A DNA stretch of 64,000 bases. It comes from Naegleria gruberi (taxonomy: Eukaryota). A model generated the notes under the pieces. That model had not been told where the DNA came from and did no database searches. It worked only from the letters and a program-made list of their open reading frames with translations. This document shows positions 8,748 to 17,635 of this stretch, in pieces. The number at the start of each line of letters is the position of its first letter. The stretch's first letter is position 1. The position numbers were made by a program, and so were the translations under genes. The stretch lies in assembly GCA_000004985.1 (NCBI GenBank), contig GG738868.1; one strand, 5' to 3'.

Positions 8748-10065
8748 ATGATGAGACCAACAAACACTGGCGACAAGCCAAATCCTCCTCCACAACCACA
8801 AGGAACTCCCTATGTTGGAAGTAAAATTAGTTTAATTTCCAAGAGCGACATTCGTTATGAAGGTATTTTGTACAATGTTGATACTGTATCTAGTACCGTA
8901 GCTTTGAGAGATGGTATGTAAAATAATTTGATAACGACGTCATATTAACCCAACACTTGTATTTGTTATTGTATTAATGATATTTATATTGATCAAATAT
9001 ATATATTAATATTATATCATATGATTTTGTATTAAACAAATAATAGTTAAAATGTTTGGTACTGAAGGAAGAAGACAAGGAGACCAAATTCCACCTCTTG
9101 ATAAGATCTATCCTTTCATCATCTTTAAAGGAAGTGATATTAAGGATCTTACTGTATGTGAACCTCCACAACAAACTCCTCCAGTTCAACCTCCAAGACC
9201 TCAACAAGGAGGAGAAACTGGTTCTCAACCACCTTCAATGGGAACTTTCCCACCTCAACCTGTTAATCAACCAGGCGGTAATATGCCAGGTATGATGCCA
9301 CCAAATCCAGGAATGATGCCTCCAAATATGCCACCTTACATGAATCCATACTTTAATCCATATATGCCGTATGGAAATCCAATGGGATTCAATCCTGGTA
9401 TGATGCCACCTAATGCTATGGTTAACATGCCACCTAAAAATCAACCTCCAGTTAATCAACCAACCCAACAACCTTCTCAACCAACAACTCAACAAAGACC
9501 AACTACAAATGGTCCAGTAGTAGGAGCTAAGTCAACACAAGTTTTAGAACAACCAAAAGTAACACCAACAATTGATACTGTTCAACAACAACCACAACAA
9601 GTAGTTGAAGAAGTTAAGCCAACCCCAATCACTCCAACAACCCCTGTTGTTTCAATCACAACAAGCACTGACAAAAAGCCAACAACACCAACCAGTGCTA
9701 CTAACGGAAAGAAGGACAAGAAATTTTTCGATGACGAATTTGATATTCAAGCTAACCTTCAAAAGCTTGACAAGTCTGTAATTGCTAAAGAATTGGAAGA
9801 AAAGCAAATTCACAAAGGATACGATAGACAAATTGGATTCTTTGATACTATCAGTCGTGAAAGTGATGAAAAGAAAAACAGAAGAACAAAACAAGAAAGA
9901 CAAGAACAACAAAGAGTTGATTTGGAAACTTTTGGTGAAACAGTGTCAAATGGTAATGGAATGCCAAGCGGTAGAGGAAGAGGAAGAGGAGGTTACCGAG
10001 GAGGATCTAGAGGATCGAGAGGAGGTAGAGGTGCTTCAAGCAGAGGAGGATATTCTCAAAGGTGA
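8748..10065 (+). CDS. LSm14/Scd6 (RAP55) family mRNP protein, 2 exons
   Basis: Exons 8748..8913 and 9047..10065. Exon 1 encodes the Lsm domain ([34 protein letters not shown]). Exon 2 continues with VKMFGTEGR...[17 protein letters not shown], a P/Q/M-rich linker, a DFDF box (KKFFDDEFD), an FFD-TFG box ([14 protein letters not shown]) and C-terminal RGG repeats. GTATGT donor, TAG acceptor. Confidence 0.85.
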
Positions 10066-11713: not shown

Positions 11714-12100
11714 TCTAAATAACAAACACAATGTATATTTATTGAAATAATTATTCGAGGATTTCTTGTGGAAGGAAATGGATTTTATGAGATTTTGGAA
11801 CAATTTTTTTCTTGAATTAACTTTGTAAAACATGGGCTTTTCACATCGATGGTTCAACGATACTATTGGTCAATTCTTTCGACTCTAAGGCATCTCATTT
11901 TGTAATCTAGTTCAATAGTTCAAATGGTTCAAAATCTCATACACAAAAGTTATTTTTACACTCAATTTCAACCAAATCAACAACTAGCTGCATGTTCAAG
12001 TGATTTGTCAACACCATCCTCAAACTTCTTGACCGTGTTGACCATTAATTTTACAACAAGCTTATTCATCAAATCTCGTTCTCAAATCTCTCTTAAAAAA

Positions 12101-13509
12101 ATGATCAAAGTCAAACACCACAAAACCAATACCGAATTAATCTCCTACAAGTTTCTATTGGAAAATTATGTCAAGGCAATGGATAAGGAACTCTATGAGA
12201 AGGTGATCTTCTCCAATACTAATAATAATACTAGTAATAACAATAATCAAAATGATGAAAAGAATATCATTGATAACAATTCAACTAATGATCATTTGGA
12301 TACATGTATCGGAATCATGTTGGGAATTGTATGTGGTGATTGTCTTGGATCTCCATGCGAATTTTATACTTTCAAGCAGATTAGAAGCATGTACTCGGAT
12401 GATTTGTTTTATAATATGATAACTGTGGATGAGGAGAGGGAGGCTGGTGTTTATACAGATGATACTGAAATGGTAAGTTTAGAGAATGAATTAAATTGTT
12501 TCGAATATTGGAATGAAAATAGGCATTGGCTTTAACAAGTTGTATCATTCACAAAAGAGAAATTAATGCAGATTTATTTACCAAGTTCTATGTCAAGTGG
12601 TTTAGAGATATTGGGCCTAGAAGAGGATATGGACCTGCAGTTTCCGTGATTTTAAACAAACTCTATAAGAATGAAATGACTTTCAGAGAGTCAGCCACAA
12701 GTTTTTATAAGGATGGAAGTTATGCGAATGGTGCACTGATGAGGATAGCTCCATTGGCTGCCATTTTGTTGAATTCTGAGGAGGCATTCAATGATGAGTT
12801 GATCTATCAATTGGTTTATACTGCATCCATGACTACCCATGTAAATATTGAGGCTGTGGATGCTGCATTCCTTCAAGTGAGAGCAATTATTGAGCTCGTG
12901 AAAAAGTGGAAAGGAAAATTGGATGAATTCAAACCACAAGAATTTCTCGAATGGATTATTTCCACATCCAAGAGTAAGGCCATGAGAGAAAAATTGGCAA
13001 TCTTACAGGATATTCTCTATGGGCCAAATGCTATACAAGATCCAGGAATGGACAATCTCAATGATCCTAAATCCATGACTCAAGAATACATTCAAAAAGT
13101 TGATCTATTACTGGAAAAAACAGTTGGAAATACTCAATTCGGATTTGGATTTCAAGTGAAAGCTGTGGATGCATTCTCAAATGTCTTGTTCATTTTCTTG
13201 CAATATTACAAGCATCCAGAGCAGGCAATTGTTAGAATGGCTACCATGGGAGGAGATGCTGATACCACATCAGCCATTTTGGGTGGGCTTATTGGAGCAT
13301 TGCATGGAACCAATTGGATTCCACAAAGATGGTTCGACAAGCTTGAAAATGATGGTGATTATGGAAGGGATGCAATTATTAGAATGGCTATCAGGCTCTC
13401 TAAATTGACTTTCAAATCGGAATTGAGCACGAATGATGATAAGGAAAAGCATGTCACTCTTTCTTCTGAAGACGTCGGATTTGAAAAGTTTAAAGAAAGA
13501 TTTGAATAA
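12101..13509 (+). CDS. ADP-ribosylglycohydrolase (ARH) family protein, 2 exons
   Basis: Exons 12101..12472 and 12523..13509. The start could alternatively be 11924, but that upstream part is low-complexity. ARH motifs GIMLGIVCGDCLGSPCEF and YTDDTEM|ALALTSC span the GTAAGT/AG intron 12473..12522. Confidence 0.7.
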
Positions 13510-13515
13510 ATTTTA

Positions 13516-14937
13516 TTAAGGTTTAACTGTTTCTTTGAGATGTGGTTCAATAATTGAAGAATTATCATATAATTTGCCAATGGAAGCCAAATATTCAACT
13601 TGTTGCAAGATGAGAACTGATTCCGTGAGAGAAGGTCTTGTCTTGAACAATGCATTGATCTTCTTATTGAAATGCTTCAATGAAAGATCGAGTGATTTGT
13701 CCTTGAAGTGATTTCTTTGTTGACTAATTGCCCATAATACTGGTGGGAATGTTGATTCATTTCTTAGGAAGGTTTTAACCATGTAAGAAGTGAAATCTGC
13801 ATCAATTTTGGAATAATATTCTTCAAATTTCTTACATGAATCAAGAAAATGTTCAGAATTTTCCATTTCATGCAAATCTTGCAAATCCAATAATAATTTC
13901 TCTTGAATATCTGGATCAAGAATCAAATCGAAAGATGTTCTATTTTCATGAATCCATCTACTGATAGTTTCTAACCAATTCAATGAGTTTCCAATAATAT
14001 TTGCCTTTGGAAATCTCTTTCTAGTTGCTTGATACAGTCCATCTTCAAATTGCTCAATTCTCAAATTCAACTTGCTGACATTCTTCAAAGATGGACTCAA
14101 TTTCTGAGTGAAATCCCAAACTTTTCCAAAGAATCGCTCATCTCTCTTTTCTCTTGACAATACGAAAAGAATAGGATAGGCATCCAAGTTTGGTTTCTTT
14201 ACGAGAAGTGAAACTAATTGAGTTGTTCCAGTTGGGCAATCTTGATAATTAACATCTAAACACAAGTGATCGCAATCTGAAATTCCATTCAAGACGGCAA
14301 CTTGTGCTGGACTGGAGTAGAATAAATTAAATTGAGGAGTGAATTCGAAAGTTCTTAAGAATTCTTCCTCGCTCACTGTTTTAGCGAGGGGTCCTTTGGT
14401 CAATTCGTCCAAGTTGAGTAGCTTGTCCATTTGCTTAATCTTATTTCGAGCAGATTCTACATGATTAGTTTTCACTTCAAAGCTTGGATTTCCTTTATGA
14501 AGTGGTGAAAGTTTCGAATTTAATACATTCACCACCTCATTAACATCCAAAGAATCGTCAGGATTCGAATAAAGCCAATCAAATACTTCTCTTCTCCTCT
14601 CTGGACACAATTTACCCACCTCTCCACTACCATAATACTTTGGTGGAGCATGTGAATGATCATGAGATTGCGTCCACTTGTTAAATTGAGGATAATAAAC
14701 AAGTTTTGCCTGACAACCACTATCTCTTGATTTACAATCAAATTCCATAAGGTTGGTCAACTTGGGATTTTCTTTGTAAATGAATTCATTGTATTGGAGT
14801 GTTGTGGTTTTCTTGTTGGAATGATGTTGAATTTCTGATTGATTAATGACTTGATCGTTGTGTTGGATCAAATCGTGGTAGAATTGTTTTTCAGATTTGG
14901 AAATTTCTAAAGGTTTAGCATTCACTGATTGACTCAT
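13516..14937 (-). CDS. Mutator-like (MULE) transposase-derived protein with N-terminal FLYWCH/WRKY-type zinc finger
   Basis: 473-aa intronless ORF. Cys/His cluster FDCKSRDSGCQAKLVYYPQFNKWTQSHDHSH, then a MULE-core-like segment (LCLDVNYQDCPTGTT...YPILFVLSREKRDERFFGKVWDFTQKL, compare the P-I-A-F-A-L-x-E-x-E-x-x-W-x-F pattern of MULE transposases). No terminal inverted repeats found by eye. Confidence 0.45.
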   Translation of the reverse strand: MSQSVNAKPLEISKSEKQFYHDLIQHNDQVINQSEIQHHSNKKTTTLQYNEFIYKENPKLTNLMEFDCKSRDSGCQAKLVYYPQFNKWTQSHDHSHAPPKYYGSGEVGKLCPERRREVFDWLYSNPDDSLDVNEVVNVLNSKLSPLHKGNPSFEVKTNHVESARNKIKQMDKLLNLDELTKGPLAKTVSEEEFLRTFEFTPQFNLFYSSPAQVAVLNGISDCDHLCLDVNYQDCPTGTTQLVSLLVKKPNLDAYPILFVLSREKRDERFFGKVWDFTQKLSPSLKNVSKLNLRIEQFEDGLYQATRKRFPKANIIGNSLNWLETISRWIHENRTSFDLILDPDIQEKLLLDLQDLHEMENSEHFLDSCKKFEEYYSKIDADFTSYMVKTFLRNESTFPPVLWAISQQRNHFKDKSLDLSLKHFNKKINALFKTRPSLTESVLILQQVEYLASIGKLYDNSSIIEPHLKETVKP

Positions 14938-15800
14938 TTTTTTTTAATTGTGCATGTTTTTTGATATTATTTGGAATATTAACAATTTTAATATATTTGT
15001 AAATATACCTTAAAAGGAGAATCTTCTTAATTATTTAAAGAAACGTTTAATCTCAAAATTAAAATATTCTTGGAATAATTTCAACAACACCAAGCAAATT
15101 AGACAAAGAAATTAAAGTTCCATTGACTCTAAATTCGTATTGATTATCTCCTCTTTAAAAATTTTTCTAAAATTCAAAATAAAATCACTAATGAAAAACT
15201 TATACTTGTTCCTTCCCAATACGAATCAAAATAAATCATAATAATTCAAATTCATTTACTTTTTTGTTGATCCGATATGTTGTTGGATCAGTTTTTTTTG
15301 AATTGCATTGTTAAATAAAAACTCATTGTTTTCAAATCATGATTTGTTAATAATCTTAACGTTCTTCTACTTCAAATAAATATTGAACATGTTGTGTCTT
15401 CAACAAGGTCGGAATTGGTCTTCCGAAGATTTGAGACACGTTTTTGATTCTCTCTCAAAAGATTAAGCAACATTCAACATACAATTCCTTTAAGGATCCC
15501 AAGTCAACTTGATTTACTGTAAATAATCGAGAGGGCTAAAAATATTTTCAGATATGAAAATTGTTCTTCATCATTCTTTCCTTCGAATAAAATTCAAACA
15601 AATCCAGCATATTCACATGAAAACAATGAAACTCAATCTCAACTTTCAACTCTACTAACAGATTGGAGCTAATGAAAAATCTGGCTAGTTTAGCTTCTCA
15701 AGTGGAAGTTCCACTCAATCTCAACACGGAAGATTTTCCTAATCCACTCAACGGTTTGTCCAAATTAACGTTCTATTAATAAAACATCAAGCACAAAAAA

Positions 15801-17635
15801 ATGACCAAAGTTGATACTGTGGCCTCTGTTCGTCCAGAAAATGATCAGCCAGTCACCACTTCAGCAAAAAAGAAGGAAAAGAAGAGAAAGCCCTACGTGA
15901 AGAGAGCATGTCTTTCTTGCCACTCTGCGCACGTAGCATGTGAGGCTGAGAGACCTTGTAAGAGATGGTAAGTATATGAATACAATGTTTTTTTTAATAT
16001 TCATGTGGTAAATTGTTATTAACATTGTATGACAATTTGAAATATAGTAAAAAGAAGGGAATTGCTTGTGTGGATTATATTCCTTCCAAGAAGAAGTCAT
16101 CATCAAAGGAGGAAGATGATGAACAAACCGATGTGAGTGATAATGAAAATCCTCTTGTTGTACAACAGCAAGAACAAGAACACACCTCTCCAAGAAAGAA
16201 GAAGAGAAGATCCCCTACTAGTGGCGAGCCATCGTGTGTTATTAGGATTTCTGCTCCATCTTCAATGGATGAACAAACATCCTCTTCCAACAAGCAACAA
16301 CAAGAACAATCGGAAGCCTTGAATAATTCTTCGAGTGCTCTCGTCAAGTCAGCCCTCACATCATCATCCTCAGCTGATATTAAGAAGAGAAAGACTTCAA
16401 AGAGAAGGAAGGATTCTTCATCGATTAAATCACCACCAGTACTACCATCCATAAAGATTGAAGATGTTCCTCTTGAAGAGGATTCAATGCATACATCATC
16501 CCCAACAATAACTTCTGCCGACCCAGTTAGTTTTGATCCTATAACCAATAATTTACCAATCTCGTCTCAAACAATACCACAACCTAATATGATTAATGCT
16601 AGTATGGTTAACCCTGACATTGCAGCTTCTGACAACAAGTCTCAAATGTCAATGTATCAACCATATTTCTGGAATCAAAATCCAATGATGCAACAATGGT
16701 TTGCTATGCAAATGGCACAATACCAAGCACACAATCAACATCTTCAACAACAAACAGGACAACCTCAACAAAATATGGTCTATCCACCATTCTTCATGAT
16801 GCCAGTAATGCCTCAACAACAAGCCCACACATTCCCAGTACAAACACCTACCTCTCCAATGCAAACAGATGTTGCAATGTCACCATCAACTGCTTTTCCA
16901 ACTATTGAGCAATCATATAATCCTGCATATGCACTTTCGTATAGTGTACCAAAACCAATCACCATGTTGGAAAATACTGATGATGGATTTTCATTCTTTG
17001 ACAATTCAGCAAACACCTATCCTGATAATGGAAATGCATTGATTGAAGAATTAGATGTAAACAATAATGGACTTGTGGAAGAACATTCTAATGATGGATA
17101 TAATAATGAAGAAAAACCAACACAAACTGTAACCACTCCTCCACCAAACAATAATACTACTGATAATCTGGCATTCTTTGAAGATGATGATTACTTTGGT
17201 ACTAGTGCTGCAGATTCTTATCCTAACTTTCCAGATTACACTTCCTCTCCACAGCCAACATTCCAAGAACCTCAAGAAAAGAAAAAACCAATTGTTGCCC
17301 CTCAAAAAGCAACAGATGATGATATTATAGATCTGATTACATCTGAGGCTTCTCTATTGACTGAAAAATCTAAAGAACAACAAAACAATCAAATCAACAG
17401 TCCAAACACAACACTGTCAAATATTGATTCTAGTGGTACTAATGGCTCATCAGACATTGACCTCACTGTGAATGACATTAATTATGTAATCAGTCAAGCT
17501 CCAGATAATATGATTTCAAAGCAAACTATTGGAGAACTCATCAAGAGAATATGGCAAACCCAAGAAAATCAAACAAAGGAAATTAACGAACTCAAACAAT
17601 TGGTTAGTGAACTCAAGAGGATGATCATTTCATAA
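15801..17635 (+). CDS. Zn(II)2Cys6 binuclear-cluster (fungal-type) transcription factor, 2 exons
   Basis: Exons 15801..15967 and 16048..17635. Splicing reconstitutes C-LS-C-HSAHVA-C-EAERP-C-KR-C-KKKGIA-C, the canonical CX2CX6CX5CX2CX6C spacing. The rest is Q/S/N/P-rich with a C-terminal coiled-coil (ELKQLVSELKRMI). Confidence 0.75.

What the first reader, a model, noticed from the sequence alone, without database searches (positions are those of the whole stretch)
13516..14937. Mutator-like (MULE/FAR1-like) transposase-related gene with FLYWCH/WRKY-type zinc finger
A 473-aa intronless ORF, unusual here where most genes have introns. It has an N-terminal C/H cluster (CKSRDSGCQAKLVYY...HDHSH) and a segment matching the MULE transposase core pattern (PILFVLSREKRDERFFGKVWDF). 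It may be an active transposase, a domesticated FAR1-like regulator, or a relic. Its identity bears on genome dynamics in this lineage.
Basis: partly seen in the sequence, partly recalled or inferred. Interest (0 to 1): 0.5.

Follow-up and report, generated by a model that had tools for sequence, protein, structure and literature searches.

The report
Catalytically dead MULE transposase gene, Naegleria
This Naegleria gruberi gene descends from a Mutator-like "jumping gene" enzyme: it keeps the DNA-binding zinc finger and overall fold, but has lost the cutting residues and the transposon ends, so it is an immobilised and probably co-opted transposase, a known kind of thing.

Summary
The 473-aa ORF at 13516-14937 (minus strand) is real. 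The window is Naegleria gruberi; the public model XP_002677197.1 is a 225-aa truncation of this gene.

It is not an active transposase:
- The family's D..D..CxxH..E signature reads D228, E295, N317/N320, K421 here.
- Its flanks hold no terminal inverted repeats, whereas the N. lovaniensis homolog has a significant one.
- Its stop codon lies 6 nt from a conserved host gene.
- No second copy is in the window.
- None of 32 checked hits is a N. gruberi paralog.

The zinc ligands, W402 and most structural columns are kept, and the reading frame is intact. Its nearest relatives elsewhere carry stops and deletions.

Best reading: a domesticated, DNA-binding MULE derivative (about 0.55). Main rival: an undisrupted relic (about 0.25). 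This is a new member of a known kind, of modest interest.

The parts
13516..14937 (-). Intronless 473-aa ORF: MULE-transposase-derived protein of Naegleria gruberi (locus NAEGRDRAFT_67606, publicly modelled as only 225 aa)
   Evidence: ORF list. Organism and accession come from the cluster look-up of P0001. Full-length homology to the MULE/FLYWCH family.
14650..14823 (-). N-terminal FLYWCH / WRKY-GCM1-type zinc finger (aa 39-96). Ligands: C68 (14734-14736), C75 (14713-14715), H94 (14656-14658), H96 (14650-14652)
13942..14268 (-). RNase H-like core equivalent to the Pfam MULE domain (aa 224-332), with degenerate catalytic positions. D228 is kept (14254-14256). The second D is E295 followed by an inserted Q296 (14050-14055). 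The C..H of the (C/D)xxH motif are N317 (13987-13989) and N320 (13978-13980)
   Evidence: Family alignment columns. Model topology b1 224-228, b2 240-247, b3 254-261, a1 267-280, b4 291-294, b5 313-316. MULE domain limits in homologs. Codon coordinates.
13582..13914 (-). All-alpha insertion domain and the helix that should carry the catalytic E (aa 342-452). The conserved W402 is kept (13732-13734). The family motif TNNxxE reads LDLSLK here, so the E is K421 (13675-13677)
   Evidence: The roles of the W and the E in the MULE transposase Muta1 come from PMC5499845.
14256..14301 (-). 46-nt GT..AG stretch that the public gene model splices out. Removing it shifts the frame and ends the protein at 225 aa. 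This is probably an annotation error
   Evidence: Exon 14937..14302 plus exon 14255..14214 reproduces P0001 / XP_002677197.1 exactly. Homology and the confident structure model continue through and beyond this stretch in the unspliced frame.
14938..15800 (.). 863-nt region upstream of the ORF, shared with a divergently transcribed Zn2Cys6 gene. It contains no terminal inverted repeat partner
   Evidence: The best inverted local alignment of the 5' flank against the 3' flank scores 24, and 81 of 200 shuffles reach that score. Repeat scan. The neighbour's ATG is at 15801.
11924..13509 (+). Convergent host neighbour, an ADP-ribosylglycohydrolase gene. Its stop codon lies 6 nt from the ORF's stop, leaving no room for a 3' transposon end
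   Evidence: Pfam PF03747. Its C-terminus is conserved to the last residues in the Willaertia magna ortholog.

Best explanation
The gene descends from a Mutator-like (MULE) DNA transposase of the FLYWCH-finger type, the kind represented by Muta1 and Phantom. It has the same layout: an N-terminal FLYWCH zinc finger, then an RNase H-like DDE core with an all-alpha insertion.

In N. gruberi it is no longer part of a mobile element. It has no terminal inverted repeats, it is wedged between host genes, and no second copy was found. It can no longer cut DNA, because two of the three metal-binding residues are replaced (second D to E295, E to K421) and the (C/D)xxH motif has become NxxN.

The zinc ligands, the conserved W402, most structural positions and the whole 473-codon frame are preserved. 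The most likely present role is therefore a host-retained (domesticated), sequence-specific DNA-binding protein. It could act as a transcriptional or chromatin regulator, or as a binder or repressor of related transposon ends.

Shown: the ancestry, the fold, the loss of catalytic residues, the absence of TIRs and the intact frame. Inferred: catalytic inactivity, purifying selection and the DNA-binding role.
For: Ancestry:
- 40 homologs, with E-values down to 2.8e-34 over aa 25-450.
- 17 of 18 homologs match PF10551 MULE and 9 match PF04500 FLYWCH. All six homologs scanned individually clear the MULE cutoff, and the three of them with a FLYWCH match clear that cutoff too.

Loss of catalysis:
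- The second-D column is D in 34 of 34 homologs but E295 here. The C and H of GCxFH are 94% and 91% conserved but N317 and N320 here. The E of TNNxxE is 93% conserved but K421 here.
- These residues sit where the triad belongs in the model: the end of beta1, just after beta4, and on the late helix.
- In Muta1, the changes D214A, D283A, E419A and W401A each abolish cleavage and joining (PMC5499845).

Not a mobile element:
- The flanks have no inverted repeat above shuffles (81 of 200 shuffles reach the observed score). The same test gives 0 of 200 for the N. lovaniensis homolog and 1 of 200 for a metagenomic homolog.
- The stop codon is 6 nt from a conserved host gene.
- There is no other copy or fragment in the 64-kb window.
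- None of the 32 checked hits is a second N. gruberi protein.

Retention:
- The intact frame has a chance probability of about 1e-16.
- Consensus is kept at 52 of 75 non-motif conserved columns but only 4 of 16 catalytic-motif columns (Fisher p=0.0015). Constraint was therefore lost selectively at the active site.
- C68, C75, H94, H96 and W402 are kept.
- Codon usage is within the host range.
- The nearest relatives (about 30% identity, contigs L007 and L006) still have D..D..CxxH but carry an in-frame stop and deletions. That is what real decay looks like in this clade.
Against: - No ortholog was found, so there is no dN/dS and no conserved synteny. The nearest named relative, in N. lovaniensis, is 26% identical and sits at an unrelated locus.
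- The ARH neighbour's orthologs in Willaertia magna and in a metagenome contig have no such gene beside them, although no other gene is syntenic there either.
- Expression was not tested.
- The motif and non-motif column classes were defined after looking at the alignment.
- Copy number in the whole genome could not be measured. The proteome proxy can miss masked or unannotated TE copies, and copies hidden inside 50% identity clusters.
- The high pLDDT owes much to the homolog alignment and does not prove that this diverged sequence folds.
- D to E at position 295 is conservative and might retain metal binding by itself.
Confidence: 0.55

Rival explanations
1. It is a fossil: a dead, immobilised MULE copy that is decaying neutrally, whose reading frame has simply not yet been hit by a stop or frameshift.
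For: The gene looks lineage-specific. No ortholog turned up among the 1.84 billion representatives of about 15 billion proteins, or in the metagenome contigs. There is no conserved synteny. The catalytic residues are gone and there are no TIRs. The public annotation treats it as an anonymous 'predicted protein'.
Against: A sequence that has replaced 12 of 16 catalytic-motif positions and about 31% of the other conserved positions should also have picked up stops or indels across 1,419 nt of 34% GC DNA, yet it has none. Loss is concentrated at the active site rather than spread evenly (p=0.0015). The zinc ligands and W402 are intact. The related true relics L006 and L007 show stops and deletions while still keeping the triad.
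Confidence: 0.25
2. It is an inactive transposase variant that still serves a transposon family. For example, it could be a DNA-binding repressor or dominant-negative regulator of active MULE copies elsewhere in the N. gruberi genome, rather than a host-function gene.
For: It has a retained DNA-binding finger and a dead active site. The family includes elements with TIRs in a sister species, so intact MULEs occur in Naegleria.
Against: No other family member from N. gruberi appears among the 32 checked hits. The closest relatives are only about 25-31% identical, too far to share end-binding specificity with any sampled element.
Confidence: 0.12
3. It is an active, autonomous MULE transposase.
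For: The full-length ORF has the complete domain layout. The first D (D228) and W402 are present, and E295 is a carboxylate.
Against: K421 replaces the catalytic E, the C and H of CxxH are both N, and DGTF has become DVNY. There are no TIRs, no room for a 3' end and no second copy in the window. Alanine changes at the triad abolish activity in Muta1 (PMC5499845).
Confidence: 0.03

Closest known systems
Muta1 / Phantom-type MULE transposases (FLYWCH finger + DDE core; Aedes aegypti Muta1, 504 aa)
   Same: Both have an N-terminal FLYWCH zinc finger followed by a DDE core, and they are similar in size. Key positions nearly coincide: Muta1 has D214, D283, W401 and E419; here the equivalents are D228, position 295, W402 and position 421. 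The (C/D)xxH site lies 22 aa after the second D, within the stated 15-45 aa.
   Different: Here the second D is E, the E is K, and CxxH is NxxN. There are no TIRs or subterminal repeats, and a target-site duplication cannot be placed without ends.
Naegleria lovaniensis XP_044552297.1 (P0002) and the metagenomic relatives P0003-P0010
   Same: These are the best sequence relatives, at 24-28% identity over nearly the whole length and in the same family. P0002 comes from the same genus.
   Different: P0002 keeps DGTFD / D-FD / GCQFH / TNTHAE and is 694 aa long. It is flanked by a significant imperfect inverted repeat of about 45-54 nt that fits exactly between host genes. It is therefore a bona fide element, at an unrelated locus.
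ISCth4 / IS256-family bacterial transposase (PDB 6XG8, 6XGX)
   Different: Sequence identity is 11-13%. It is bacterial, has no FLYWCH finger and has an active DDE.
FAR1/FHY3 and MUSTANG (plant domesticated MULE transposases)
   Same: These are the same kind of outcome: a MULE transposase retained as a TIR-less host gene that uses its WRKY-GCM1-type DNA-binding domain.
   Different: They have an independent origin. No FAR1 or SWIM Pfam match was seen here. Their conservation and function are demonstrated in plants, whereas neither is shown here.
FLYWCH transcription factors (human FLYWCH1, C. elegans FLH-1/2/3)
   Different: As described, those proteins are FLYWCH-finger factors with no transposase core mentioned (from memory, not checked here). 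This protein keeps the whole, inactivated, core.

Membership tests
MULE (Mutator-like) transposase superfamily, by homology | Significant match to the MULE transposase domain profile (PF10551) | tested here: not met
   There is no PF10551 hit for the window protein even at E<=10. However, 17 of 18 of its homologs hit PF10551, and the six scanned individually score above the gathering cutoff. Membership by descent therefore rests on transitive homology.
MULE (Mutator-like) transposase superfamily, by homology | RNase H-like fold of the Mutator/IS256 type, with an alpha-helical insertion before the E helix | tested here: met
MULE (Mutator-like) transposase superfamily, by homology | N-terminal WRKY-GCM1 / FLYWCH-type zinc finger | tested here: met
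Functional (active) MULE transposase | Intact DDE catalytic triad | tested here: not met
   D228 is kept. The second D (100% conserved in 34 sequences) is E295, with Q296 inserted after it. The E (93% conserved) is K421.
Functional (active) MULE transposase | (C/D)xxH motif 15-45 aa after the second D | tested here: not met
   The family motif GCxFH reads GNSLN here, so the C is N317 and the H is N320. The motif definition comes from PMC5499845.
Functional (active) MULE transposase | Conserved W upstream of the catalytic E | tested here: met
   W402 sits in a column that is 93% conserved.
MULE transposable element (mobile unit) | Terminal inverted repeats flanking the transposase gene | tested here: not met
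   The best inverted alignment of the flanks scores 24, and 81 of 200 shuffles reach that. The only candidate from the repeat scan (I12, 16 of 19 nt) overlaps the conserved end of the ARH coding sequence. The positive controls L001 and L005 pass the same test. Some MULE families lack TIRs altogether (PMC6446971), so this absence is not decisive alone.
MULE transposable element (mobile unit) | 8-10-bp target-site duplication | tested here: inconclusive
   Without ends there is nowhere to look. The flanks of the I12 candidate show no duplication.
MULE transposable element (mobile unit) | Multiple copies in the genome | not testable with these tools
   There is one copy in the 64-kb window. No second N. 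gruberi protein appears among the 32 of 40 hits whose source was checked. The full genome was not available.
Domesticated transposase gene | Orthologs conserved in synteny across species under purifying selection | tested here: inconclusive
   No ortholog was found. Loci around the ARH orthologs in Willaertia magna and in a metagenome contig lack it, but share no other gene either. Indirect support comes from the intact frame and the active-site-specific loss.
Domesticated transposase gene | Expression and a host function | not testable with these tools
   There is no transcript or functional data. The exact-protein look-ups found nothing on record.
FAR1/FHY3 family | FAR1 DNA-binding domain and SWIM zinc finger | tested here: not met
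   There is no FAR1 or SWIM Pfam hit at E<=10. Across the members of the 19-sequence alignment A1, the only ZSWIM-type match is a single hit to the ZSWIM1-3 RNaseH-like domain.

The most novel reading that the evidence does not exclude
This would be the first domesticated MULE transposase described in Heterolobosea/Discoba: a FLYWCH-finger, catalytically dead transposase kept by N. gruberi as a sequence-specific DNA-binding regulator. It would be one of several independent co-options in this protist MULE clade. A second TIR-less, triad-degenerate, tightly embedded 466-aa member (P0024) sits in an unrelated uncultured eukaryote.
Probability: 0.45. Interest if true: 0.4.

Novelty: new member of a known kind. 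Interest (0 to 1): 0.3.

Why it matters
The finding corrects a mis-modelled N. gruberi gene from 225 aa to 473 aa and gives an anonymous 'predicted protein' an identity.

It also shows that FLYWCH-type MULEs exist in Naegleria, a host genus that is not mentioned in the 2019 eukaryote-wide MULE survey (PMC6446971). One TIR-bearing element occurs in N. lovaniensis and one immobilised, active-site-dead derivative in N. gruberi.

If the derivative is truly domesticated, it adds a Discoba example to the recurrent theme of transposases becoming DNA-binding regulators. It would also give a tractable protein for asking what such a factor binds in a free-living amoeboflagellate. This does not open a new category of biology.

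Tried and rejected
- The word-indexed homolog searches gave nothing useful. The single-protein search returned no hits, not even the 98%-identical P0001. The profile search returned only P0016.
- PDB sequence searches found nothing significant, either with the single protein or with the family profile.
- AlphaFold without an alignment was useless, at pLDDT 35.
- The afdb50 fold library was unavailable.
- Exact-protein look-ups of the window ORF and of P0001 found no contigs.
- A scan of metagenome contigs for close relatives found none.
- The synteny test through the ARH neighbour was uninformative. The Willaertia and metagenome loci share only ARH with the window, and no N. fowleri or N. lovaniensis ARH ortholog was returned.
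- I considered the 19-nt inverted pair I12 (13499-13517 / 15586-15604) as a TIR and rejected it. Only 16 of 19 bases match, it is no better than shuffles, its left arm lies in the conserved ARH C-terminal codons, and it has no TSD.
- The Pfam ARM_TT21_2nd hit (E 4e-4, below the cutoff) falls in the helical insertion domain, and I dismissed it as a helical-repeat chance match.
- The codon-usage index is host-like, but it discriminates poorly: an intergenic control scored 0.71 against 0.74 for the ORF. It therefore counts as weak evidence only.
- A viral or laterally transferred island is not suggested, since composition is uniform and the neighbours are ordinary host-type genes.

Full report
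**Observation**

The minus strand of 13516..14937 carries one uninterrupted ATG-to-stop ORF of 473 aa.

- The local stop-codon probability is about 0.074 per codon, so a 473-codon open frame has a chance probability of about 1e-16.
- Shuffles of the whole window never exceeded 164 codons.
- The remark that an intronless ORF is unusual here does not hold. The window has 24 open frames of at least 250 aa, alongside genes with short introns.

**Source organism**

The one close match in the exhaustive protein search, P0001, is 98% identical over aa 1-216. It is EFC44453.1 / XP_002677197.1, NAEGRDRAFT_67606, a 'predicted protein' of Naegleria gruberi on a 427,589-bp scaffold.

- Joining 14937..14302 to 14255..14214 reproduces that 225-aa model exactly.
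- The public model therefore removes a 46-nt GT..AG stretch (14301..14256), shifts frame and stops early.
- Homology to the family, and a confident structure model, run on in the unspliced frame to about aa 450.
- The 473-aa intronless ORF is thus the better model, although RNA data were not available to exclude real splicing.

**What the protein is**

Direct profile evidence is weak. There is no Pfam MULE hit at E<=10, FLYWCH scores E 0.037 (14.6 bits against a cutoff of 23.6) while covering the whole profile, and nothing turns up in PDB by sequence.

An exhaustive phmmer search of 1.84 billion representatives gave 40 hits, 27 of them below 1e-10. The best cover aa 25 to about 450 at 25-29% identity.

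- Of 18 full-length homologs, 17 match PF10551 MULE and 9 match PF04500 FLYWCH. All six homologs scanned individually clear the MULE cutoff, and the three of them with a FLYWCH match clear that cutoff too.
- Named sources are Naegleria lovaniensis, Arcella intermedia and the planthopper Nilaparvata lugens. The rest are metagenome or Logan contigs.

With the 39-sequence alignment, AlphaFold gave pLDDT 89.3 and pTM 0.69.

- Foldseek agrees, with 6xgx_B at E 1.4e-7.

The layout matches Muta1, an experimentally characterised 504-aa MULE transposase with an N-terminal FLYWCH finger and the triad D214/D283/E419 plus W401 (PMC5499845). The corresponding positions here are 228, 295, 421 and 402.

**Active site**

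In the family alignment the four signature motifs are strongly conserved: DGTF, D-FE, GCxFH and TNNxxE. The window protein reads as follows.

| Family motif | Window sequence | Consequence |
|---|---|---|
| DGTF | DVNY | First D (D228) kept; G, T and F replaced |
| xxD-FE | IEQFE | Second D, invariant in 34 of 34, is E295, with Q296 inserted after it |
| GCxFH | GNSLN | C is N317 and H is N320 |
| TNNxxE | LDLSLK | E is K421 |

- In the model these positions fall at the end of beta1, just after beta4, at the start of the helix after beta5, and on the late helix. That is where an RNase H-like transposase places them (PMC5499845).
- Alanine substitutions of any triad residue abolish cleavage and joining in Muta1. 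A lysine in place of the metal-binding glutamate should do the same; this step is inference.
- The zinc ligands C68, C75, H94 and H96, and W402, are all retained.
- Over columns that are at least 60% conserved in the family, the window protein keeps the consensus at 52 of 75 non-motif columns but only 4 of 16 motif columns (Fisher p=0.0015).

**Is it a mobile element?**

The ORF's stop codon is 6 nt from the stop of a convergent ADP-ribosylglycohydrolase gene. That gene's C-terminus is conserved to the end in Willaertia magna, so there is no space for a 3' transposon end. Upstream, 863 nt separate the ORF from a divergent Zn2Cys6 gene.

| Locus | Best inverted alignment of flanks | Shuffles (mean, sd) | Shuffles reaching it (of 200) |
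|---|---|---|---|
| Window ORF | 24 | 23.3, 2.4 | 81 |
| N. lovaniensis homolog (L001) | 35 | 21.1, 2.5 | 0 |
| Metagenomic homolog (L005) | 31 | 20.0, 2.4 | 1 |

- In L001 the imperfect repeat is about 45-54 nt (9878-9922 / 12193-12246) and fits exactly in the gap between host genes. In L005 the ends carry GTTCCG repeats.
- The family therefore includes real elements, and the window copy lacks their ends.
- No other copy or fragment is in the window, by DNA, by the protein itself or by 39 family members.
- Of the 40 hits, I could trace 32 to a source, and only P0001 is from N. gruberi.
- Whole-genome copy number could not be measured.

**Relic or domesticated?**

No ortholog exists in the searched collections. 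The synteny test through the ARH neighbour was uninformative. Selection therefore cannot be measured directly, but three indirect points favour retention.

- The frame is intact despite heavy divergence.
- Loss is concentrated in the active site, while the finger and structural core are kept.
- The nearest relatives (about 30% identity, contigs L007 and L006 from one ENA metagenome) show the opposite pattern. They keep D..D..CxxH but carry an in-frame stop, a 9-aa deletion and an internal deletion.

Codon usage is host-like, but that index is weak.

A parallel case exists. P0024 is a 466-aa member with a deleted first D, GSLFY in place of GCxFH and R in place of the E. It lies with no TIR (166 of 200 shuffles reach its score) among host genes on a 166-kb eukaryotic contig, with a convergent gene one base after its stop. 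Its nearest relative, P0008 at 39% identity, is an intact element.

I put domestication as a DNA-binding protein at about 0.55, an undisrupted relic at about 0.25, a transposon-family regulator at about 0.12 and an active transposase at about 0.03.

**Comparison with what is known**

By descent and fold this is a member of the MULE superfamily, of the FLYWCH-finger type represented by Muta1 and Phantom. It fails the tests for a functional transposase (triad and CxxH) and for a mobile element (TIRs).

Functionally it resembles domesticated MULE genes such as FAR1/FHY3 and MUSTANG, but it is not a member of those families, since there are no FAR1 or SWIM hits.

The 2019 survey of MULEs across eukaryotes does not mention Naegleria (PMC6446971). 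The presence of this clade in the genus is therefore a small addition.

**Verdict**

The object is ordinary in kind: an immobilised, catalytically dead transposase-derived gene. It has modest local interest and corrects a gene model.

Noticed in passing
window 14214-14937 (-), intron call 14256-14301: The public N. gruberi model XP_002677197.1 (225 aa) is reproduced exactly by splicing out 46 nt, which shifts the frame. Homology and the structure model support the unspliced 473-aa ORF, so the public model is probably mis-annotated.
   Followed up: yes
window 15801-17635 (+), intron 15968-16047: The divergent neighbour encodes a protein whose spliced N-terminus matches the 'fungal' Zn(2)-Cys(6) binuclear cluster domain (PF00172, 30.6 bits against a cutoff of 21). 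The cysteine spacing is the canonical CX2CX6CX5CX2CX6C. This is a fungal-type transcription factor domain in a heterolobosean.
   Followed up: partly
L001 9878-12246 (N. lovaniensis PYSW02000010.1): The N. lovaniensis homolog (694 aa, triad intact) is flanked by a significant imperfect inverted repeat of about 45-54 nt that fills the gap between two host genes. It appears to be a compact MULE element of about 2.4 kb. No clear target-site duplication was seen.
   Followed up: partly
L005 9846-9885 and 12102-12139 (JGI metagenome 3300062135): The ends flanking homolog P0008 carry inverted arrays of GTTCCG/CGGAAC units. These look like the subterminal transposase-binding repeats of a MULE.
   Followed up: partly
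L007 344-1345 and L006 1862-2828 (ENA ERZ27315067): The closest relatives of the window protein (29-31% identity) are broken copies, with an in-frame stop, a 9-aa deletion and an internal deletion. They nevertheless still have the D..D..CxxH residues, the reverse of the pattern in the window gene.
   Followed up: yes
L008 6001-7401 (JGI 3300037860, 166-kb contig): P0024 is a 466-aa family member with degenerate catalytic motifs and no TIR. It is packed among host genes, with a convergent gene starting one base after its stop. This may be an independent immobilisation or domestication in another protist.
   Followed up: partly
window 11924-13509 (+): The search with the ADP-ribosylglycohydrolase neighbour returned orthologs of 50-52% identity in Willaertia magna and in one metagenome contig, but nothing from N. 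fowleri or N. lovaniensis at E<=1e-20. This reflects either gene loss in those species or a limit of the word-indexed search.
   Followed up: no
tool behaviour: The word-indexed protein search did not return P0001 (98% identical and present in the collection) or most family members. Negative results from that tool on this AT-rich, low-complexity proteome should not be trusted.
   Followed up: no
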